From a virus, in IMG/VR virus record IMGVR_UViG_3300045988_035032, positions 1 through 40,910 of that record: 40,910 bases of DNA, one strand, 5' to 3'. Below the pieces are notes generated by a model that saw only the letters and a program-made list of their open reading frames with translations, was not told the DNA's origin and made no database searches. The position numbers were made by a program, and so were the translations under genes. Positions 986-6,538 of the stretch are shown piece after piece. Each line of letters opens with the position of its first letter. The first letter of the stretch is position 1.

Positions 986-1036
986 TTGCACACGCGGGCA
1001 CAAAATGATAAAATAAGCCCGAAAGGACGTGGTATT

Positions 1037-1345
1037 ATGGACGACAAAAATACTCCGCTGGCCTCTGAAATGTATGAGGACCTGAAAAAGGCAACAAAAT
1101 TCCGCGAGAAGCTGATTTATATTCTGCTGGCGGTGATTGCCGCTCTGGTGATCGCTTTGGCTGGGACGAATATCTATCACATATACCAGTGGAGCCAGTT
1201 TGACACCGTTGTTGTGGACAGCGGCGAGGGGTCCGGTAACGCCAACTACGTCCAGGGCGACAACACTGGAGGCATCTACAATGGCGAGAGTGGCAGTACG
1301 TCGCCGGAAAACGGGGACATCCAGGGGAACCCGAATCAAGGTTAA
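1037..1345 (+). CDS. Small single-pass membrane protein, unknown function
   Basis: ATG 1037 follows GAAAGGA. One hydrophobic helix (LIYILLAVIAALVIALAG) is followed by a G/N/S-rich tail. Confidence 0.6.
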   Translation: MDDKNTPLASEMYEDLKKATKFREKLIYILLAVIAALVIALAGTNIYHIYQWSQFDTVVVDSGEGSGNANYVQGDNTGGIYNGESGSTSPENGDIQGNPNQG

Positions 1346-1366
1346 AAAGAAAAAGAAGAAGCGCCC

Positions 1367-1570
1367 ATGAACATCCGGACCGAATTTACGGAGCCGGAAT
1401 GTGAGTGGTTCCGATCTATCTGCAACTTTACCCCGGACGAGCTGGCCGTATTCAATCTCCGCGTAAAAGATCACTCTAGAATTGAAATCGCTATGGCGCT
1501 CAAAATGTCTGAGTCAACTGTAGACCGCCGTATCCGGGGCATCAAAAAGAAAATTCATAAGGTTCTGTGA
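1367..1570 (+). CDS. Sigma-70 region-4 / LuxR-like HTH protein (67 aa)
   Basis: LTPDELAVFNLR...SRIEIAMALKMSESTVDRRIRGIKKKI is a typical region-4 HTH. A strong terminator follows. Confidence 0.7.
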   Translation: MNIRTEFTEPECEWFRSICNFTPDELAVFNLRVKDHSRIEIAMALKMSESTVDRRIRGIKKKIHKVL

Positions 1571-1589
1571 CAGCTTTGTGACAGTTTTT

Positions 1590-1623
1590 AGAGGGTTAAC
1601 TGACAGGTTAGCCCTCTTTTTTT
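1590..1623 (+). terminator. Rho-independent terminator
   Basis: 11-bp stem AGAGGGTTAAC/GTTAGCCCTCT (one G-U pair), 6-nt loop, then T7. Confidence 0.8.
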
Positions 1624-1725
1624 ATGCGAAAATTTAAGCATGGAGGACGTGGGGATACAGGGTTGGTACACGTCGCCGCCCTCCTCACGGACTCCATATT
1701 TTTTATGAAAAGGACGTGTTTTGAT

Positions 1726-1929
1726 ATGACTCCTGTAGAAAGATTAGTTGCCGCCGGGATTCGTCCAGATTGCGCCAGTGAGACAGTTATGTGGTTTCGG
1801 GCACAGGGGGATGATTATGGTTTGGAAAAGTATCTGAATGAGGTGGAAAGCCGCCATGCGAACAACGGAGAGGTATTCCTGGCACAACGAAAACCCTTAC
1901 AACAGGAATGTGGGAGACTGCACGGTTAG
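1726..1929 (+). CDS. Hypothetical protein (start ATG 1726 preferred over 1624)
   Basis: AAAGGACG RBS lies upstream. The 3' end overlaps the next ORF by 74-92 nt in another frame, so its extent is uncertain. Confidence 0.4.
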   Translation: MTPVERLVAAGIRPDCASETVMWFRAQGDDYGLEKYLNEVESRHANNGEVFLAQRKPLQQECGRLHG

Positions 1930-2230
1930 AGCTATTTCCACCGCTTTGGACCAGGCCTGGGACACCACCTACATAGGCCTGTGCCTGGAAGGGTATCTCC
2001 TGAAGGATATGCCAAGCTCCAACGAGGTGTGGAGGAGCTATCTGAGCAAGTATGGTCTGGAGCGAAGACCGGCTCCGCCTCACACAACGGTGAATGAATT
2101 TGCCAGGACACATAGAAACGGTGTGTACCTTCTCGGCCTGAATTCCCATGTGGTCTGTATTATCGACGGGACGATTCTGGATACATGGGATTCTGGGGAA
2201 AAGGAAGTTTTGTACTACTGGAAAGGATGA
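1856..2230 (+). CDS. Hypothetical protein with putative Cys-His-Asp (papain-like) triad
   Basis: GAGGTGGA RBS lies 7 nt before ATG 1856. Candidate triad motifs are NVGDCTVRAIS, NSHVVCIIDG and DTWDS. Confidence 0.6.
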   Translation: MRTTERYSWHNENPYNRNVGDCTVRAISTALDQAWDTTYIGLCLEGYLLKDMPSSNEVWRSYLSKYGLERRPAPPHTTVNEFARTHRNGVYLLGLNSHVVCIIDGTILDTWDSGEKEVLYYWKG

Positions 2231-2236
2231 CGTGAT

Positions 2237-2710
2237 ATGGCCTATACACCTACACCTTACTATCCGGGCTATCAGCCCATGTACTACCAGCCGCCCATGC
2301 CGGACCAACTGGCCCAGCTCCGTGGGCAGCAGTTCCAACCTCCCATGCAAGGACCGCAAATGCCGCCCGTACAGTCCCAGCAAAATGGGCAGTCCATGGT
2401 TTGGGTGAATGGAGAGCAGGAGGCCATGGGATATCTTGTGGCTCCCAACAGTGCCGTTGCTTTATGGGACAGCAACAGCCCCACTATTTATCTCAAACAG
2501 GCGGATGCCTCTGGAAAGCCCAGCATCAAAATTTATGATCTGGTAGAACGTAGCAATGCCACAAGGACGGCCCCAGCAGCCACGCAGGAGCCTTCTATCC
2601 GCTATGCCACCCAGGATGACCTGGACGCTCTTGCGGCCCGTGTGGACGCTCTGAGCGCCAAAGAGACGGCCCCGGTAAAAAAGAAATCTGTGAAGGAGGA
2701 TGCTGAATGA
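2237..2710 (+). CDS. P/Q/Y-rich N-terminal low-complexity protein with small C-terminal globular domain
   Basis: The first ~50 residues are almost only P, Q, Y and M, followed by WVNGEQEAMGYLVAPNSAVALWDS. The stop overlaps the next start (ATGA). Confidence 0.7.
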   Translation: MAYTPTPYYPGYQPMYYQPPMPDQLAQLRGQQFQPPMQGPQMPPVQSQQNGQSMVWVNGEQEAMGYLVAPNSAVALWDSNSPTIYLKQADASGKPSIKIYDLVERSNATRTAPAATQEPSIRYATQDDLDALAARVDALSAKETAPVKKKSVKEDAE

Positions 2711-2925
2711 ATCCGTTTTTTGGTGTGATGGGCGGAGGCCGCCCCAACATGATGCAGCAGTTCCAGCAGTTTATGAACCAGATGAAGGGGACGGACCCCA
2801 ACGCCATGATACAAGAGATGGTATCATCTGGCCGCATTTCCCAAGATCAGCTTAACCAGGTCCAGAAACAAGCCCAGCAGATGTCAGGCATGTTTGAGGG
2901 GATGAGGGGAATGTTTGGTAAATAA
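2707..2925 (+). CDS. Small Q/M-rich protein
   Basis: ATGA-coupled to the upstream gene. The sequence MMQQFQQFMNQMKG...QAQQMSGMFEGMRGMFGK is low complexity. Confidence 0.6.
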   Translation: MNPFFGVMGGGRPNMMQQFQQFMNQMKGTDPNAMIQEMVSSGRISQDQLNQVQKQAQQMSGMFEGMRGMFGK

Positions 2926-2982
2926 CTTCAATCAAAATCCGTGGCCACGGTTTTGAAAATAAATCAAAAAGGAGATAACACA

Positions 2983-3732
2983 ATGAGTCTTTCTTCTGAC
3001 AATGTGGCTCTGACCATGCCTGTCCAGCCTGCCAATTCTAACGGTAACGGCAGCATGTGGGGCGGCGATTGGTCCAGCTGGATCATTTTGTTCCTTATCT
3101 GGGGCATCTTTGGATGGGGCAACGGCGGCTATGGCGGCTTCGGCGGAGGCGGCGGGGTTAATAATCCCGGCCTACAAGGACTTGCTACCAGGTCCGACAT
3201 CAACGAGGGCTTTGCGCTGAACGGTCTCCAGACCGGCCAGAGCGGTATCCTCTCCGCCGTAACCAATGGCTTCCATGGTGTGGATAATGCTATCTGCAAT
3301 CTCGGCTATCAGCTCCAGGACTGCTGCTGCCAGACCCAGCGGGCAGTGGACGGCGTGAATTATAACCTGTCCACCCAGGGTGCGGCTACCCAGGCGGCAA
3401 TTCAGGGCGTTCGCTACGACATGGCTACCCAGGCTTGCGATACCCGGAATACCATCCAGAACAGCACCAGGGACATCATCGACAACCAGAACGCCAACAG
3501 CCGTGCGATCCTTGACTTTTTGACTCAGGACAAGATTGCTACTCTGACGGCTGAAAACCAGAGCCTGAAGTTCCAGGCTTCCCAGGCGGCACAGAACGCT
3601 TTCTTCACCGCCAATCAGGAGGCCCAGACCGCTGAACTGATCCGCCGCATCAGCCCCATGCCTGTTCCGGCCTATCAGGTGCCCAACCCTTATGCCGGTT
3701 GTGGGTGTAATCCCTGCGGCGGCTGCTGCTAA
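2983..3732 (+). CDS. Membrane-anchored Gly-rich / Q,N-rich protein with Cys-rich C-terminus
   Basis: AAGGAG lies 8 nt before ATG 2983. It has a W/F-rich TM helix, a GGYGGFGGGGG run, a CCC motif and the terminal CGCNPCGGCC. Confidence 0.75.
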   Translation: MSLSSDNVALTMPVQPANSNGNGSMWGGDWSSWIILFLIWGIFGWGNGGYGGFGGGGGVNNPGLQGLATRSDINEGFALNGLQTGQSGILSAVTNGFHGVDNAICNLGYQLQDCCCQTQRAVDGVNYNLSTQGAATQAAIQGVRYDMATQACDTRNTIQNSTRDIIDNQNANSRAILDFLTQDKIATLTAENQSLKFQASQAAQNAFFTANQEAQTAELIRRISPMPVPAYQVPNPYAGCGCNPCGGCC

Positions 3733-3771
3733 AACCCAATACATCAACTTTCCGGCATGACCGGAATGTTC

Positions 3772-3829
3772 GGCCCCGTGCCGATTTTGAACTATGCGGC
3801 GGGGCAATAGCCTCGCCGCTAATCTTTTT
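3772..3829 (+). promoter_or_regulatory. Attenuator-like pair of mutually exclusive hairpins upstream of the C1q-like gene
   Basis: Hairpin A (3773-3805) and hairpin B (3796-3819, 9 bp, followed by a T5 run) share GCGGCGGGGC. Confidence 0.35.
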
Positions 3830-4268
3830 GAAAGGAATGATTTTTTTGGCCGAGTACACAAATAGCGCAATCGTAACCGTTGCCGCTGGTCAGAACGTGC
3901 CCTTTACCGAGGAGGCCAACACGAGCAAGCCCTGCATCGTACACCGGGAGGGTGCTGGACTGGTGACTCTTCGTGGGCTTACGAACCAGTGTCGGGCGAA
4001 ATTCAAAGTCTCCTTTGGCGCCAATATCGCCATCCCTGACGGCGGGACCGTGGAGGCCATCACTGCGGCAATCTCCATCAATGGTGAGGCGCTGACCGCA
4101 TCCACCGCCACTGTTACCCCTGCCGCTGTGGAGAATTTCTTTAATATCTATGTCTCCGCTGTGGTAGATGTCCCCCGTGGCTGCTGTGTCACTGTTGCCG
4201 CAAAAAACACCAGTACACAGCCTATTTTAGTAGCCAACAGTAACTTCATTGTTGAGCGTGTAGCCTGA
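3828..4268 (+). CDS. Small beta-rich protein resembling BclA C-terminal / C1q-TNF-like jelly-roll domains
   Basis: Pattern QNVPF...GLVTLRG...FKVSFGANIA...ISINGE...NSNFIVERV. The start is uncertain (TTG 3828, ATG 3837 or TTG 3846). Confidence 0.65.
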   Translation: MKGMIFLAEYTNSAIVTVAAGQNVPFTEEANTSKPCIVHREGAGLVTLRGLTNQCRAKFKVSFGANIAIPDGGTVEAITAAISINGEALTASTATVTPAAVENFFNIYVSAVVDVPRGCCVTVAAKNTSTQPILVANSNFIVERVA

Positions 4269-4282
4269 AAGGAGAGGATACT

Positions 4283-4705
4283 ATGAAAGCACTATACGAG
4301 CTGAAGGATAAGCTCCAAGACGAACTGGACGAGATTGCCCGCAAGCCTGAAATGTCTGCTGGTGATCTGGAGACCGTCCACAAGCTGACTGATACCATCA
4401 AGAACATCGATAAAATCTGCGCTCTGGAGGAGGCCGGTGACTACTCTGAGGCGGGCGACTGGGAGGGACGCGGCTCCTATAACCGTGGCTCCAGCTATGC
4501 TAACCGTGGTAAGCACTATGTCCGAGGACACTATAGCCGGGACAGTTATAGCAACCGTGGTGACTATAGCAGAGATGGAGGATATAGCCGTCATGATGCC
4601 AAGGAGGCTATGATAGAGCAGGCCCGTGAGATGATGGAAAATGCCACTACTGACCGAGAGCGTGAAGCGATCCGCCGTTTTATGAGCGAGCTGGGCCGGG
4701 ACTGA
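4283..4705 (+). CDS. Coiled-coil protein with central R/G/S/Y low-complexity repeat
   Basis: GGAGAGGA RBS. The core RGSYNRGSSYANRGKHYVRGHYSRDSYSNRGDYSRDGGYSRHD is flanked by helical acidic segments. Confidence 0.7.
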   Translation: MKALYELKDKLQDELDEIARKPEMSAGDLETVHKLTDTIKNIDKICALEEAGDYSEAGDWEGRGSYNRGSSYANRGKHYVRGHYSRDSYSNRGDYSRDGGYSRHDAKEAMIEQAREMMENATTDREREAIRRFMSELGRD

Positions 4706-4720
4706 TAGGGGGTGTCCCCC

Positions 4721-5059
4721 ATGCTTGACCGCAAGGAGATAGATATTGAAATTGCTCGTCTGGAATACGGAGAATCCAGCTACCCAGCATACCAAAAGTT
4801 AGCAAATCTATACACGATCAGGGACCGTATGGACCGGCAAGAACGTCCGGCGACATATGAGACATCTTACTCCACTGCACCGGCAGTTTCCGAGGAATAC
4901 ACGGTAGTTGATGACTACGGGGACAGCGATTTTTTGCGTAGCGTGTATGGCAGGGATCAGAGGGCGGCATGGGCCGTTATGGATGATCTGATGGACACGC
5001 TCCACACAGTCAACCCACGGGTGTATGAGGGTGTCATGAGGAAAATTCAGGCCCTCTAA
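4721..5059 (+). CDS. Hypothetical protein
   Basis: AGGGGGTG RBS precedes ATG 4721. This is the last gene of the moron operon and a strong terminator follows. Confidence 0.65.
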   Translation: MLDRKEIDIEIARLEYGESSYPAYQKLANLYTIRDRMDRQERPATYETSYSTAPAVSEEYTVVDDYGDSDFLRSVYGRDQRAAWAVMDDLMDTLHTVNPRVYEGVMRKIQAL

Positions 5060-5064
5060 ACTAG

Positions 5065-5097
5065 TCCGCCCCCCTTTATGGGGGGGCGGATTTTCTT
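5065..5097 (+). terminator. Rho-independent terminator
   Basis: TCCGCCCCCC-TTTAT-GGGGGGGCGGA followed by TTTTCTT. Confidence 0.85.
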
Positions 5098-5118
5098 ATG
5101 AAATTCTTATCCATTGGA

Positions 5119-5334: not shown

Positions 5335-5356
5335 TTTGGGCATTATTTGGGCATTA
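5335..5356 (+). repeat. Arm-type repeats (right arm), tandem TTTGGGCATTA x2
   Basis: Two exact tandem 11-mers overlap the int stop codon. Confidence 0.7.
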
Positions 5357-6538
5357 TTGAGCTTTTTTCTTTAGTCGGGAAACCAGAGTATCTGCCACGG
5401 CCTGACTGGCTGCAGCTTTAGATTCCGCAAACTCATAGGCATAGATATTTAGGGTGGTAGATACCTGAGAGTGACCTAAATTTGCGGCTACGGTCTGTGC
5501 ATCGGCCCCAGAGTTAATCAATAAGGCGGCATTTAGATGTCGAAACGCATGTATGCCAAGAAAACGAAATCCATGTGCGGCACAATGTTTTTTCAGCCAC
5601 GCATAAGGTGTGTTAGGGTGCATGGGGGCTCCATCCGCAGTAGTAAATACACGATTACTCCCTTTCCATTGATCACCAATCATAAGCATTGTTTCCGCTT
5701 GACTGGCATGGAGTTTACGCAGTACATCAAAGACCACCTTTGGCTGTTTCAGAATACGCTTGCTCCCTTCAGTTTTTGGGATGTCAGTGTAAATACCACG
5801 TTCCTTGGTGTATAAGCTGGCACGGTTGACGGCTATCAGGCAATTCCGGAAGTCGATATCATCCCATTCAAACCCCAATAGTTCCTCACGCCGATACCCG
5901 CAGAAAATCGCAAGAGTGAAAAAAGCGCGATATTTTAATGGGGCATCCTCCAAACTTTCTAAAATCTGTACCGCTTCTTCAACCGTGTACCACTTCTTTT
6001 GCGATCTATCGGCCTTTGGAGGTTTTACATTGGAGCATGGGTTATCATGAATCAGCTCCATATCAACCGCATAAGAGAAGATAGATGACAGCAGGGAAAG
6101 ATAATTCCTTTGAGTTTTGGGAGATAGAGGCTTTTTTGTTATCATATTTGCTCCAGGTTGTCCCAGCTTTGCAACGAACGCTTTTATCTGTCTAGGAGTG
6201 ATTTTGTCCAGGTAATAGTGTCCCAATTCATCTATGATACGTTGCTTTAAACTCTCATATCCTACAGCGGTCCTATGGCGGAGGTCAACCGATGCGTATT
6301 CTTCCATGTATCGCTCTACAAAAACAGAAAACTTTATATGGCCTGACTGGACAGAAAGACTTTTACAGGTTTCATCAAATAAAACGGCTTGTCTGGTAAG
6401 CTCCCTCTCAATTTGTTTTTGCGTCATTCCGGGATCAGGGGTCCAGGTCATGGATGGCTGGACCTGTCGCCCGTCTACTCGGTATCCGACGGATGCCCGA
6501 ATACGGTAAGATTTCCCTCTTTTTTCTATATGGGCCAT
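5354..6538 (-). CDS. int: Tyrosine integrase (phage integrase family)
   Basis: N-terminal MAHIEKRGKSYRIRASVGY arm-binding domain, SAM-like core, and C-terminal HAFRH...LGHSQVSTTLNIYAY catalytic motifs. AAGGAGG RBS. Confidence 0.95.
   Translation of the reverse strand: MAHIEKRGKSYRIRASVGYRVDGRQVQPSMTWTPDPGMTQKQIERELTRQAVLFDETCKSLSVQSGHIKFSVFVERYMEEYASVDLRHRTAVGYESLKQRIIDELGHYYLDKITPRQIKAFVAKLGQPGANMITKKPLSPKTQRNYLSLLSSIFSYAVDMELIHDNPCSNVKPPKADRSQKKWYTVEEAVQILESLEDAPLKYRAFFTLAIFCGYRREELLGFEWDDIDFRNCLIAVNRASLYTKERGIYTDIPKTEGSKRILKQPKVVFDVLRKLHASQAETMLMIGDQWKGSNRVFTTADGAPMHPNTPYAWLKKHCAAHGFRFLGIHAFRHLNAALLINSGADAQTVAANLGHSQVSTTLNIYAYEFAESKAAASQAVADTLVSRLKKKAQ

What the first reader, a model, noticed from the sequence alone, without database searches (positions are those of the whole stretch)
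986..5100. Post-lysis moron operon: sigma-r4-like HTH plus consecutive low-complexity, Cys-rich and C1q-like proteins reminiscent of spore-coat/exosporium components
About 4 kb of plus-strand genes sit between the endolysin and attP, the classic lysogenic-conversion position. None has a virion or lysis role that I can see.

Gene content:
- A membrane protein (1037).
- A 67-aa sigma-70 region-4-like HTH (1367). It ends in a terminator preceded by three TGACAG copies (1567-1572, 1579-1584, 1601-1606).
- A putative Cys-His-Asp enzyme (1856).
- A P/Q/Y-rich protein (2237).
- A Q/M-rich 72-aa protein (2707).
- A TM-anchored protein ending in CGCNPCGGCC (2983), with a GGYGGFGGGGG run and Q/N-rich regions.
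- A BclA-CTD/C1q-like beta protein (3828).
- An R/G/S/Y-repeat protein (4283) and one more ORF (4721).

A strong terminator closes the block. Tyr/Gly/Gln/Cys-rich cross-linkable proteins plus a C1q-like domain are the compositional signature of Firmicute spore coat and exosporium layers. A phage-borne cassette remodelling the spore or cell surface, or forming a proteinaceous matrix or condensate, would be unusual. This is inference from composition only.
Basis: inference. Interest (0 to 1): 0.7.

Follow-up and report, generated by a model that had tools for sequence, protein, structure and literature searches.

The report
Widespread phage accessory cassette, function unknown
The 4-kb block is a real, self-contained accessory gene cassette, carried by phages of many gut bacterial phyla, that probably builds a membrane-anchored, cysteine-rich fibre-like protein assembly; it is not tied to spore formation and its function is still untested.

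Summary
All listed ORFs, their compositions, the TGACAG copies and the terminators exist. G is a true BclA-CTD/C1q-type domain, B a sigma-70 region-4 HTH, and C a papain-fold Cys-His-Asp protein.

The spore-coat reading does not hold. The same gene set (B, C, D, E, F, G or an alternative 'G2', H) is syntenic in more than 80 species-level genomes. These include Oscillospiraceae, Lachnospiraceae, Collinsella, Prevotella/Alloprevotella, Melainabacteria and a crAss-like phage. It sits at different places in phage genomes: after lysis genes, after tail fibres, or inside a head module. A relative with a 96%-identical holin lacks it, so it is an accessory, exchangeable cassette.

- a conserved 'B gene, direct repeats, terminator, extended -10 promoter' junction;
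- a RAGATH-31 RNA (window 1642-1695) as attenuator-like leader of the cassette transcript;
- a small ORF X.

No soluble component has a signal peptide. My best guess (inference) is a late-made, membrane-anchored, Cys-cross-linkable stalk (F) plus beta-sandwich cap (G) with low-complexity partners, acting at or after lysis. Exclusion/defence and lysis-effector roles remain open. The function is unknown and no characterised relative exists.

The parts
987..1014 (+). Promoter-like site (TTGCAC.. / TGATAAAAT extended -10) directly after the endolysin stop, ahead of A-B
   Evidence: Consensus scan, (9/12 match with TG). Sequence read. Not tested for function.
1037..1345 (+). A: 102-aa single-pass membrane protein with a G/N/S-rich tail; optional partner of B
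   Evidence: ORF. An A-like ORF directly precedes B in 14 loci. No family match.
1367..1570 (+). B: 67-aa stand-alone sigma-70 region-4 / LuxR-GerE-type HTH; putative regulator of the cassette
   Evidence: GerE 23.0 bits (cutoff 23.5) and Sigma70_r4_2 at 3e-4. 19/42 family members hit Sigma70_r4, best 3.9e-9. Present upstream of D in 54/87 loci.
1566..1588 (+). Tandem 11-bp direct repeat TGTGACAGYTT x2 overlapping the B stop codon; candidate operator
   Evidence: the only zero-mismatch copies in the window. Analogous short direct repeats sit at the same place in other loci.
1590..1624 (+). Intrinsic terminator T1 (12-bp stem, loop with the third TGACAG, T7 run) ending the A-B unit
   Evidence: A hairpin plus T-run follows B in most of 52 loci.
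1625..1633 (+). Extended -10 promoter element TGcGAAAAT abutting the terminator T-run (P2)
   Evidence: The pattern T-run+TGnnAnAAT occurs in 11/52 loci, against 0.18 expected and a maximum of 2 in 300 shuffles.
1642..1695 (+). RAGATH-31 RNA (RF03101): 5' leader hairpin of the cassette transcript, followed by U6 at 1699-1704 (attenuator-like)
   Evidence: 80.4 bits against gathering score 71.8, E=2e-17. Same position in L014. Fold -33.7 kcal/mol, z -3.1.
1726..1929 (+). X: small conserved ORF (67 aa; alternative start at 1705), overlaps the start of C
   Evidence: ORF. tblastn matches in L003, L009, L014, L099, L102 (86%) and L103. Gene called at the same place in L087-L091.
1856..2230 (+). 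C: 124-aa papain-fold protein with invariant Cys22/His98/Asp109 (phrog_3754)
   Evidence: AF2 pLDDT 87.6. The best PDB matches are all papain-like (Josephin, C39 double-glycine peptidases, staphopain, CHAP) but E>=0.075. 23 BFVD matches at E<=1e-3.
2237..2710 (+). D: P/Q/Y-rich disordered N-terminus (1-54), small alpha/beta domain (55-101) and C-terminal helix (126-144); phrog_21718
   Evidence: Found next to F in 79/87 loci.
2707..2925 (+). E: 72-aa Q/M-rich helical protein (phrog_22984)
   Evidence: No significant family or structure match.
2983..3732 (+). F: signature protein. Acidic N-tail, short hydrophobic W/G-flanked anchor, Gly-rich hinge, Q/N-rich helical stalk with invariant CCC, RAIDGVNYN, PxPxPAY and a Cys-rich C-terminus (phrog_16490)
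   Evidence: 1302 clusters at 50% identity. Sub-significant profile match to influenza HA2, E=0.014.
3796..3819 (+). Terminator-like hairpin between F and G (weak T-run)
3828..4268 (+). G: stand-alone BclA-CTD / C1q-TNF-like beta-sandwich with a conserved CC (phrog_20016)
   Evidence: Profile against PDB: BclA E=3e-4. 20/44 members hit PF18573, best 4.8e-8. An unrelated Cys-rich 'G2' replaces it in 37 loci.
4283..4705 (+). H: helical ends flanking an R/G/S/Y/D low-complexity core
   Evidence: In relatives H-like proteins are often fused to, or followed by, DUF7841 (PF25223).
4721..5059 (+). I: 112-aa ORF, conserved in 12 loci only
   Evidence: No family match.
5063..5092 (+). Strong intrinsic terminator T3 closing the cassette
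   Evidence: 13-bp stem, 9 GC pairs.

Best explanation
**What is shown**
- Window 986-5100 is one copy of a conserved accessory cassette of tailed phages. It moves between phage backbones and between positions in the genome.
- It has two parts. The first is a small regulatory unit: membrane protein A plus the sigma-70-region-4 HTH protein B, ending in direct repeats and a strong terminator.
- The second starts 8 nt after that terminator's stem, abutting its T-run. An extended -10 promoter-like element is followed by a RAGATH-31 leader (hairpin plus U6) and the genes X-C-D-E-F-G-H-I, closed by a strong terminator.
- The core kept from Oscillospiraceae to Prevotella prophages is B, D, E, F, a ~135-aa beta-rich Cys-containing protein (G = BclA-CTD/C1q type here, or the unrelated G2), and an Arg/Asp/Gly/Tyr-rich protein (H, often with DUF7841). 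The papain-fold protein C is frequent.

**What is inferred**
- B controls the promoter through the repeats, and the leader acts as a regulated attenuator.
- F anchors in the cytoplasmic membrane through its short hydrophobic segment. It extends a Q/N-rich oligomeric helical stalk whose invariant Cys clusters and Cys-rich tip bind the capping beta-sandwich subunit.
- D, E and H supply low-complexity, Tyr/Gln/Arg-rich self-associating partners. C trims one of them.
- None of the soluble parts has a signal peptide. The cassette is co-oriented with late genes and usually sits beside them, and in a crAss-like phage homologues of part of it lie inside the lysis cassette.
- I therefore infer that the assembly is made late in the cytoplasm and acts at or after lysis. 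It would be a dispensable, cross-linkable fibre- or coat-like structure (adhesion, aggregation or protection of the progeny, or modulation of the lysing membrane). It would not act in spores.
For: **Synteny across hosts.** Across 87 loci F occurs with D in 79, B in 54, G in 44, G2 in 37, C in 43 and H in 36. The same order and the same composition biases are seen in a Prevotella prophage.

**Variable position.** The cassette lies:
- after holin and endolysin;
- after a receptor-binding protein;
- after an integrase;
- between MuF-like and scaffold genes.

In a crAss-like phage, an F homologue (E 8e-52), a DUF7841 protein, a 145-aa beta-rich ORF and a weak D-like ORF lie between holin and endolysin.

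**Accessory and exchangeable.** L101 lacks it, and L102 carries it with a different lysin.

**Regulatory junction.**
- A terminator follows B in most loci.
- T-run+TGnnAnAAT occurs in 11/52 loci against 0.18 expected.
- RAGATH-31 scores above its gathering score at the predicted transcript start, in the window and in L014.
- RAGATH-21 follows H in L001, L012 and L013.

**Domain assignments.** G = BclA_C. B = Sigma70_r4. C = papain-like. F has a hydrophobic anchor and invariant Cys motifs.

**Strand context.** The upstream 4.5 kb is co-directional in 33/49 loci and opposite in 4.

**Family size.** F has 1302 clusters at 50% identity, all stand-alone proteins of about 200-340 aa.
Against: - There is no expression, proteomic or genetic evidence of any kind.
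- An insulated unit with host-type promoter-like elements and its own regulator is the classic design of genes expressed from a repressed prophage, not of late genes.
- The topology of F is unresolved. The N-flank is acidic and the positive-inside rule gives no clear answer.
- No F-G interaction was modelled. The partner type (G or G2) does not co-vary with the F tail.
- All fold matches of C and D to solved structures are non-significant.
- The HA2 similarity (E=0.014) may be compositional.
- C is absent from about half the loci and occurs alone in many other phages, so it may not belong functionally.
- A strong terminator after B inside a head operon (Dulem virus 35) is odd for a purely late unit.
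Confidence: 0.35

Rival explanations
1. Lysogenic-conversion cassette acting at the membrane. It would be expressed from the repressed prophage under control of A/B. F (with G or G2 as a specificity subunit) would block DNA entry of, or sense, superinfecting phages, giving superinfection exclusion or abortive defence.
For: - Own promoter-like elements, regulator and flanking terminators.
- Accessory presence/absence and the usual position at the prophage end next to the integrase or att site.
- Two alternative proteins in the slot after F (G or G2, swapped in 15/75 nearest-neighbour comparisons) would suit a specificity determinant.
- The site carries other cargo in L101.
Against: - No match to 5027 PADLOC defence models apart from noise.
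- Every context inspected (annotated phage records and contigs with called genes) was phage or prophage; non-phage contexts such as defence islands were not screened systematically.
- Homologues of part of it lie between holin and endolysin in a crAss-like phage, and it lies within head genes in Dulem virus 35.
- Material-like low-complexity proteins conserved across phyla are atypical for defence systems.
- G, D, E and H lack signal peptides, so they cannot meet an incoming phage outside the membrane.
Confidence: 0.2
2. Accessory lysis device. F would be a membrane-active, fusion-protein- or spanin/holin-T-like protein, with a hydrophobic Gly-rich segment and a coiled coil. It would disrupt or remodel the envelope at lysis, and the other proteins would regulate it.
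For: - Direct neighbour of holin and endolysin in many loci.
- Lies between holin/Rz-like and endolysin genes in crAss-like cr1_1.
- F has one N-terminal hydrophobic segment and a long helical Cys-containing domain, like i-spanins and T4 holin T (my knowledge of those families).
- Weak profile similarity to HA2 from the fusion peptide into the coiled coil, E=0.014.
Against: - Most carriers are monoderm Clostridia, which need no spanin.
- No lipoprotein partner was seen.
- The cassette is dispensable in a close relative.
- It sits away from the lysis genes in Dulem viruses 35 and 39.
- A C1q-like cap and prion-like or RGG-like proteins have no place in known lysis pathways.
- The HA2 hit is not significant.
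Confidence: 0.15
3. One reading: a phage-borne cassette that remodels the spore coat or exosporium of the host.
For: - G is homologous to the BclA C-terminal domain.
- B resembles the 74-aa coat regulator GerE in size and fold class.
- There are no signal peptides, as for mother-cell-made coat proteins.
- Cys-rich connectors and C1q-type tips are used by endospore appendages (PMC12357932).
- L101 carries a Spo0A_C-like gene at the same site.
Against: - The module is syntenic in prophages of Prevotella, Alloprevotella, Collinsella, Melainabacteria and Treponema, and homologues of part of it are in a crAss-like phage.
- The closest relatives are in Oscillospiraceae/Subdoligranulum/Faecalibacterium MAGs. 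The latter two genera are described as non-sporulating (my knowledge).
- There is no collagen stalk, exosporium leader, or DUF3992/DUF4183/CotY-type match in any component.
Confidence: 0.03
4. Integral virion components, such as ejection/pilot or head-fibre proteins needed for infectivity.
For: - Located inside the head module in Dulem virus 35.
- No signal peptides.
- Trimer-type folds: a C1q-like domain, and a weak match of the D domain to the P22 tailspike C-terminus.
- Weak tape-measure-family hits for E.
- Homing-endonuclease-type insertions within the module suggest conserved, co-infecting targets.
Against: - Absent from L101, which shares a 96%-identical holin.
- Exchanged independently of the structural genes.
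- It has its own regulator and an insulated promoter.
- A conserved membrane-anchor-like segment has no place in a membrane-less tailed virion.
Confidence: 0.08

Closest known systems
BclA and the BclA-type tip fibrils of endospore appendages (L-BclA, F-BclA) of Bacillus/Clostridia
   Same: - G shares the BclA_C (C1q/TNF-like) domain.
- These are Cys-rich partners made without signal peptides.
- The general logic is a stalk carrying a small trimeric beta-sandwich head (PMC12357932).
   Different: - No collagen GXY stalk and no exosporium leader.
- No ExsF/BxpB, DUF3992 or DUF4183 partner.
- The stalk candidate F is a separate, membrane-anchored helical protein.
- Carriers include non-sporulating phyla.
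- The unit is phage-borne.
Phage morons (autonomous promoter-gene-terminator units such as lambda bor/lom and the HK97 morons)
   Same: - Present or absent between genes that are adjacent in relatives.
- Flanked by promoter-like and terminator elements.
- Usual site is at the end of the late operon, near att.
   Different: - Much larger (8-10 genes), with its own regulator and a structured RNA leader.
- Conserved as a block across bacterial phyla.
- Also found in a non-integrating crAss-like phage.
- Expression from the prophage is untested.
Spanins (Rz/Rz1), T4 holin T, and class I viral fusion proteins
   Same: F has a single N-terminal hydrophobic segment followed by a long helical Cys-containing domain, and often neighbours holin and endolysin. 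It has a weak HA2 profile match.
   Different: - No significant homology.
- No lipoprotein partner.
- Mostly monoderm hosts.
- Dispensable.
Papain-like peptidases of the C39 double-glycine and Josephin/UfSP type
   Same: The predicted fold and the order of the invariant Cys, His and Asp in C.
   Different: - Only 124 aa.
- No significant match to any solved structure or Pfam model.
- Not fused to a transporter.
- Substrate unknown.
- The family (phrog_3754) also occurs alone in many unrelated phages.
GerE / LuxR-type and sigma-70 region-4 stand-alone HTH regulators
   Same: B is a ~67-aa protein consisting of just this HTH.
   Different: - The window protein scores just below the Pfam cut-offs.
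- No sigma regions 2 or 3, so it is not a sigma factor.
- Target and mode of action are untested.
[quoted passage not shown] 2017, PMC5737381)
   Same: Window 1642-1695 is a full-length RAGATH-31 match above the gathering score. RAGATH-21 and hammerhead II occur in related loci.
   Different: No function is known for RAGATH-31. Here it can be placed as the 5' leader, with a U-run, of a defined cassette.

Membership tests
Phage moron (autonomous accessory transcription unit) | Inserted between genes that are adjacent in related phages | tested here: met
   L101 shares a 96%-identical holin and a 66%-identical lysin. It has only 1.5 kb of unrelated cargo before the integrase. L102 has C, D, E and F at 87-99% identity next to a 66% lysin.
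Phage moron (autonomous accessory transcription unit) | Own promoter and terminator | tested here: inconclusive
   Consensus-level only. There are extended -10 elements at 987-1014 and 1625-1633. The terminator+TGnnAnAAT junction is enriched (11/52 loci against 0.18 expected). Terminators lie at 1590-1617 and 5063-5092. No transcript data.
Phage moron (autonomous accessory transcription unit) | Expressed from the repressed prophage | not testable with these tools
   Needs RNA-seq of a lysogen.
BclA_C / C1q-TNF superfamily (protein G) | Sequence match to PF18573 or to BclA structures | tested here: met
   The family profile hits five BclA chains at E 3e-4 to 3e-3. 20/44 members hit PF18573, best 4.8e-8. 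The window protein alone gives no Pfam hit.
BclA-type exosporium glycoprotein | Collagen-like GXY stalk and N-terminal exosporium leader | tested here: not met
   G is 146 aa, with the domain only. No NCBIfam or Pfam hit for a leader or collagen.
Spore coat / exosporium system | Restricted to spore-forming hosts | tested here: not met
   Loci are assigned to Prevotella (557-kb scaffold), Alloprevotella (145-kb contig), Collinsella, Melainabacteria and Treponema, and to a crAss-like phage. Caveat: several are MAG bins.
Spore coat / exosporium system | Homology of the Cys/Tyr/Gln-rich proteins to known coat or appendage families (CotY/ExsY, CotG, DUF3992, DUF4183) | tested here: not met
   No such hit for C, D, E, F, H, I or G2 in Pfam, NCBIfam or PDB.
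Sigma-70 region 4 / LuxR-GerE HTH (protein B) | Pfam match to the HTH | tested here: met
   The window protein scores 23.0 bits against the 23.5 cut-off, just below. 19/42 members hit Sigma70_r4 (3.9e-9), 16 hit r4_2 and 8 hit GerE.
Sigma factor | Regions 2 (and 3) for core binding and -10 recognition | tested here: not met
   The protein is only 67 aa, and the matches cover region 4 alone.
Papain-like cysteine peptidase (protein C) | Cys, His and Asp in this order on a papain-like fold | tested here: inconclusive
   Cys22, His98 and Asp109 are invariant in 74 sequences. The AF2 model has pLDDT 87.6. The top PDB hits are all papain-like, but E>=0.075 and TM about 0.5.
Spanin (i-/o-/u-spanin) for F | Diderm host and an outer-membrane lipoprotein partner or lipobox | tested here: not met
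   Most carriers are Clostridia. No lipobox ORF was seen among the neighbours read, though this was not searched exhaustively.
Class I viral fusion protein (HA2-like) for F | Significant sequence or structure homology | tested here: inconclusive
   Profile against PDB gives a best E of 0.014, to many HA2 chains over the fusion peptide plus helix A. No structure model was made.
Known anti-phage defence systems (PADLOC-DB 2.0) | Match of any component to a defence model | tested here: not met
   Only weak HTH or chance hits.
RAGATH-31 RNA (RF03101) | Covariance-model score at or above the Rfam gathering score | tested here: met
   80.4 bits against 71.8, full length 1-54.

The most novel reading that the evidence does not exclude
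This would be a cross-phylum, phage-only 'materials' module. Prion-like (Q/Y/P), Q/M-rich and RGG/RD-Tyr-rich proteins would condense on a membrane-anchored, Cys-clustered stalk capped by a C1q-type or alternative beta-sandwich. The product would be a cross-linkable matrix, coat or fibre that is released with, or wraps, the progeny at lysis, a phage analogue of exosporium or ENA assemblies. It would be switched on by a region-4-only HTH protein and a RAGATH-31 attenuator leader. [quoted passage not shown]
Probability: 0.15. Interest if true: 0.85.

Novelty: new variant of a known kind. Interest (0 to 1): 0.58.

Why it matters
- **Scale.** The signature protein F has about 1300 clusters at 50% identity and thousands of near-identical copies in gut metagenomes. 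Neither it nor its partners have a name, a Pfam family (apart from BclA_C and DUF7841) or a characterised relative.
- **Unusual conservation.** A 6-8-gene block has kept its order and its odd amino-acid compositions from Clostridia to Bacteroidota phages. That points to a common, unrecognised step in the life of gut phages.
- **RNA context.** The cassette places an orphan RNA motif, RAGATH-31, as the leader of a defined operon. It also links the long-noted but unexplained 'ribozyme-associated genes' to a concrete module.
- **Testability.** Two cultured strains carry the module: Enterocloster hominis CLA-SR-H021 and Muriventricola aceti H5_61. The question is therefore experimentally tractable.
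- **Caveat.** If the cassette turns out to be just another exclusion moron, the result is modest.

Tried and rejected
- **Family libraries.** Pfam, PHROGs, NCBIfam and PADLOC scans of every ORF gave only unknown-function PHROGs and HTH hits.
- **Profile searches against PDB.** C gave no hits. D and E gave only coiled-coil or designed-helix noise. G2 gave nothing.
- **E as an STI1/Sgt2-like Met-rich chaperone.** Only a RAD23 XPC-binding-domain hit at E=0.8 and weak tape-measure hits, so this was dropped.
- **G2 as a distant relative of G or of ENA subunits.** hhalign probability was 1.4%, with no PDB or Pfam hit, so this was dropped.
- **Co-variation of the F tail with partner type (G or G2).** There was no signal beyond phylogeny.
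- **D fold.** The only match was a 50-residue non-significant match to the P22 tailspike C-terminus.
- **TGACAG as a conserved operator word across loci.** The word itself is not conserved (2-4 of 52 loci). Only the architecture of short repeats, terminator and -10 element is conserved.
- **Literature.** The searches tried (BclA+prophage+C1q, RAGATH terms, and the Pfam/PHROG accessions) found no paper on these families. The 2014/2015 ribozyme-neighbourhood papers are not held.
- **First genome-contig scan.** The scan with the diverse F alignment failed for lack of a conserved block. It worked with a narrower alignment.

Full report
**1. The observation**

The window is a circularly permuted temperate phage genome. 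An Amidase_3 endolysin ends at 985 (9.4e-31). A tyrosine integrase lies on the minus strand at 5354-6538 (Tn1549 Int, 1.8e-13). Structural genes run to the window's end.

Their compositions are as described.
- D residues 1-54 are Q/P/Y/M-rich.
- E is Q 18%, M 17%.
- F has a W/G-flanked hydrophobic segment, a GGYGGFGGGGG run, 10 Cys and the tail GCGCNPCGGCC.
- H residues 52-107 are G/S/Y/R/D-rich.

Terminator-like sites lie at 1590-1617, 3796-3819 and 5063-5092. The three TGACAG copies are real: 1568, 1579 and 1601. The first two form a perfect 11-bp tandem repeat that is unique in the window. The third sits in the terminator loop.

**2. What the individual proteins are**

None has a Pfam or NCBIfam assignment in the window copy, except for sub-threshold HTH hits for B. 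C, D, E, F and G each match a PHROG of unknown function strongly: 3754, 21718, 22984, 16490 and 20016.

Alignments built from related loci gave firmer answers.
- **G:** the profile hits five BclA C-terminal-domain structures (E=3e-4). 20 of 44 members hit Pfam BclA_C (best 4.8e-8). The C1q/BclA call is right.
- **B:** the family hits Sigma70_r4 in 19/42 members (3.9e-9), plus r4_2 and GerE. It is a region-4-only HTH, not a sigma factor.
- **C:** Cys22, His98 and Asp109 are invariant. The AlphaFold2 model is confident (pLDDT 87.6). Its best matches among solved structures are all papain-like: Josephin, C39 double-glycine peptidases, staphopain, UfSP and CHAP. None is significant (E>=0.075). In BFVD it matches uncharacterised proteins of many cultured phages at E down to 1e-10.
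- **D:** a disordered N-terminus, a small well-predicted alpha/beta domain (55-101) and a C-terminal helix. There is no significant structural neighbour.
- **E, F, H and I:** no significant relatives in Pfam or PDB.
- **F:** its profile gives a borderline match (E=0.014) to influenza HA2, running from the fusion peptide into the coiled coil. This probably explains the 'spike glycoprotein' label on a crAss-like homologue. I treat it as a resemblance, not homology.
- None of D, E, G and H shows an N-terminal signal-peptide-like hydrophobic segment on reading the sequences; no predictor was run.

**3. The genes form one conserved module**

F has more than 8000 close database hits, all 'hypothetical'. 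It has 1302 clusters at 50% identity with E<=1e-3.

A scan of one genome per species returned 80 loci. Iterative searches on their six-frame ORFs showed how often each partner sits beside F:

| Partner | Loci (of 87) |
|---|---|
| D | 79 |
| B | 54 |
| G | 44 |
| C | 43 |
| H | 36 |
| E | 32 |

- The count for E is low because short Q-rich sequences escape the model.
- The gene order is B-(C)-D-E-F-G-H-(I), or with C after H.
- Where G is missing, an unrelated 134-aa Cys-rich beta-rich protein ('G2') fills the slot in 37 loci. G and G2 are not detectably homologous.
- H-like proteins are often an Arg/Asp/Gly/Tyr-rich region fused to, or followed by, DUF7841.
- A Prevotella prophage on a 557-kb scaffold has the same order. 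It even has the same composition biases: a Y/Q/N-rich D N-terminus, a Q/M-rich E and an R/D/G/Y-rich H.

Hosts named in the records include Oscillospiraceae, Subdoligranulum and Faecalibacterium (the closest, 60-68% F identity), Lachnospiraceae, Collinsella, Bacilli, Prevotella, Alloprevotella, Paludibacteraceae, Melainabacteria, Mucispirillaceae and Treponema. Some are MAG bins and could be mis-binned. The Prevotella and Alloprevotella loci lie on long contigs.

**4. Position and dispensability**

The module occupies different places in different phages.
- It follows holin and endolysin and precedes the integrase or the host junction in Oscillospiraceae-type phages.
- It follows a receptor-binding protein in Dulem virus 36.
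- It follows an integrase in Dulem virus 39.
- It lies between the MuF-like minor capsid gene and the scaffold gene in the temperate Dulem virus 35, 17 kb from that phage's lysin and integrase.
- In the crAss-like phage cr1_1, an F homologue, a DUF7841 protein, a 145-aa beta-rich ORF and a weak D-like ORF lie between the holin/Rz-like genes and the endolysin.

Upstream genes are co-directional with the module in 33 of 49 loci and opposite in 4.

The module is dispensable and exchangeable.
- L101 has a 96%-identical holin and a 66%-identical lysin. It has only 1.5 kb of other cargo (an XRE HTH, a Zn-ribbon membrane protein and a Spo0A_C-like protein) before its integrase.
- L102 carries C, D, E and F at 87-99% identity next to a lysin that is only 66% identical.
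- Endonuclease-type genes and int-alpA RNAs interrupt the module at three different junctions in relatives.

**5. Regulation**

In most of 52 loci the B gene is followed at once by a strong hairpin plus T-run. Short direct repeats often precede it.

In 11 loci from different families the T-run is directly followed by TGnnAnAAT, an extended -10 element. The expected number is 0.18, with a maximum of 2 in 300 shuffles.

In the window this element is TGcGAAAAT at 1625-1633, which predicts a transcript start near 1640. Exactly there, at 1642-1695, Rfam finds a full-length RAGATH-31 RNA (80.4 bits against gathering score 71.8).
- It is a stable hairpin followed by U6 at 1699-1704, so it looks like an attenuator.
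- The same RNA sits after B in L014.

RAGATH-21 follows H in three loci, and two hammerhead-II ribozymes lie a few kb from the module in L004. [quoted passage not shown] The module therefore lies in the kind of phage-gene neighbourhood those authors noted without explaining.

A second promoter-like site (TGATAAAAT, 987-1014) precedes A-B. An A-like membrane protein precedes B in 14 loci.

That B acts on the repeats and that the leader is regulated are both inferences.

**6. Interpretation**

*Shown:* this is a conserved, mobile, dispensable multi-gene cassette of tailed phages, with its own HTH gene, an insulated promoter-like junction and terminators.

*Not supported:* any link to spores. The reasons are the host range, the absence of collagen or leader elements, and the lack of any coat-family match.

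*Inferred:* the material-like character of the proteins argues for a structural assembly rather than an enzyme or sensor system. That character consists of a membrane anchor with a Cys-clustered helical stalk, a C1q-type or alternative beta-sandwich, and prion-like, Q/M-rich and RG/RD-Tyr-rich partners.

The lack of signal peptides places assembly in the cytoplasm. The co-orientation with late genes, and the position inside a crAss-like lysis cassette, favour late expression and action at or after lysis.

I give this 0.35. The rivals are:
- membrane-level exclusion or defence expressed from the prophage: 0.2. It is favoured by the moron architecture and disfavoured by the absence of any defence-model match and by the protein types;
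- a lysis effector role for F: 0.15;
- essential virion parts: 0.08, contradicted by the module's dispensability;
- the spore-coat idea: 0.03.

**7. Comparison with known systems and novelty**

The nearest known things are partial:
- BclA and ENA tip fibrils, which share G's domain and the Cys-rich-connector logic (PMC12357932);
- phage morons, which share the architecture;
- spanins, holin T and viral fusion proteins, which share F's layout only;
- C39 and Josephin-type peptidases, which share C's fold class;
- GerE-like regulators, for B.

No characterised system combines these. I file it as a new variant of a known kind: an unusually large, regulated, cross-phylum phage accessory cassette whose encoded assembly has no characterised relative.

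Interest is moderate to high (0.58). The module is very widespread, unnamed and oddly composed, it gives context to an orphan RNA motif, and it is testable in cultured strains. There is as yet no functional evidence.

Noticed in passing
window 1642-1695 (+), with U-run 1699-1704 and complement 1713-1719: A full-length RAGATH-31 RNA sits exactly at the predicted 5' end of the cassette transcript. It is a hairpin followed by U6. Its loop, ACACGUC, is complementary to GACGUGU next to the ribosome-binding site of ORF X, so a pseudoknot or attenuator is possible.
   Followed up: partly
It is conserved in L003, L009, L014, L099, L102 and L103, and a gene is called at the same place in L087-L091. It overlaps the start of C.
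   Followed up: partly
L003 8280-8918; L023 8985-9050; L094-L098 9453-10241 (-): Endonuclease-type genes and int-alpA RNA motifs are inserted at three different junctions inside the module (D/E, E/F and F/G) in different relatives. This looks like homing-element traffic through a conserved target.
   Followed up: no
L101 8780-10300: A relative with a 96%-identical holin carries different cargo between lysin and integrase: an XRE-type HTH, a Zn-ribbon membrane protein and a 124-aa protein that reads like a Spo0A C-terminal domain.
   Followed up: no
L001 10502-10578; L012 11309-11395; L013 10281-10367 (+ GP20-b at L012 11889-11953 and L013 10373-10437); L015 6071-6148: RAGATH-21 RNAs lie just downstream of H in three loci. 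In L013 a GP20-b motif follows directly; in L012 it lies about 500 bp further on. A skipping-rope RNA lies near the module in L015. L004 has two type-II hammerhead ribozymes (12911 on the minus strand, 15120 on the plus strand).
   Followed up: no
L017, L018, L026, L029, L037, L038, L041, L009, L014 and others (e.g. L018 6823-7227): In 37 loci the gene after F is not the BclA-like G. It is an unrelated 134-aa protein with an N-terminal CxxxCxxC and further Cys pairs ('G2'). G2 has no Pfam or PDB match. Its layout recalls Cys-linked appendage subunits, but no homology was found.
   Followed up: partly
L006 10251-10616 (-): A tmRNA gene directly abuts the end of the module in an Oscillospiraceae MAG. 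It is probably the integration site of that prophage.
   Followed up: no
L086 3124-3723 and 3772-4515 (crAss-like phage cr1_1): A TM plus coiled-coil protein that looks like an i-spanin lies between the holin and the F homologue, followed by a DUF7841 protein with an Arg/Asp/Tyr-rich tail. The deposited annotation calls the F homologue 'spike protein/glycoprotein'.
   Followed up: partly
window 987-1014 (+): A strong extended -10-like element (TGATAAAAT, with TTGCAC upstream) starts one base after the endolysin stop codon. A-B may therefore be transcribed independently of the late operon.
   Followed up: no
L013 (NZ_JBBMFM010000014.1) and L014 (NZ_JAOQKF010000004.1): Two cultured isolates carry the module: Enterocloster hominis CLA-SR-H021 and Muriventricola aceti H5_61. 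They could be used for experiments.
   Followed up: no
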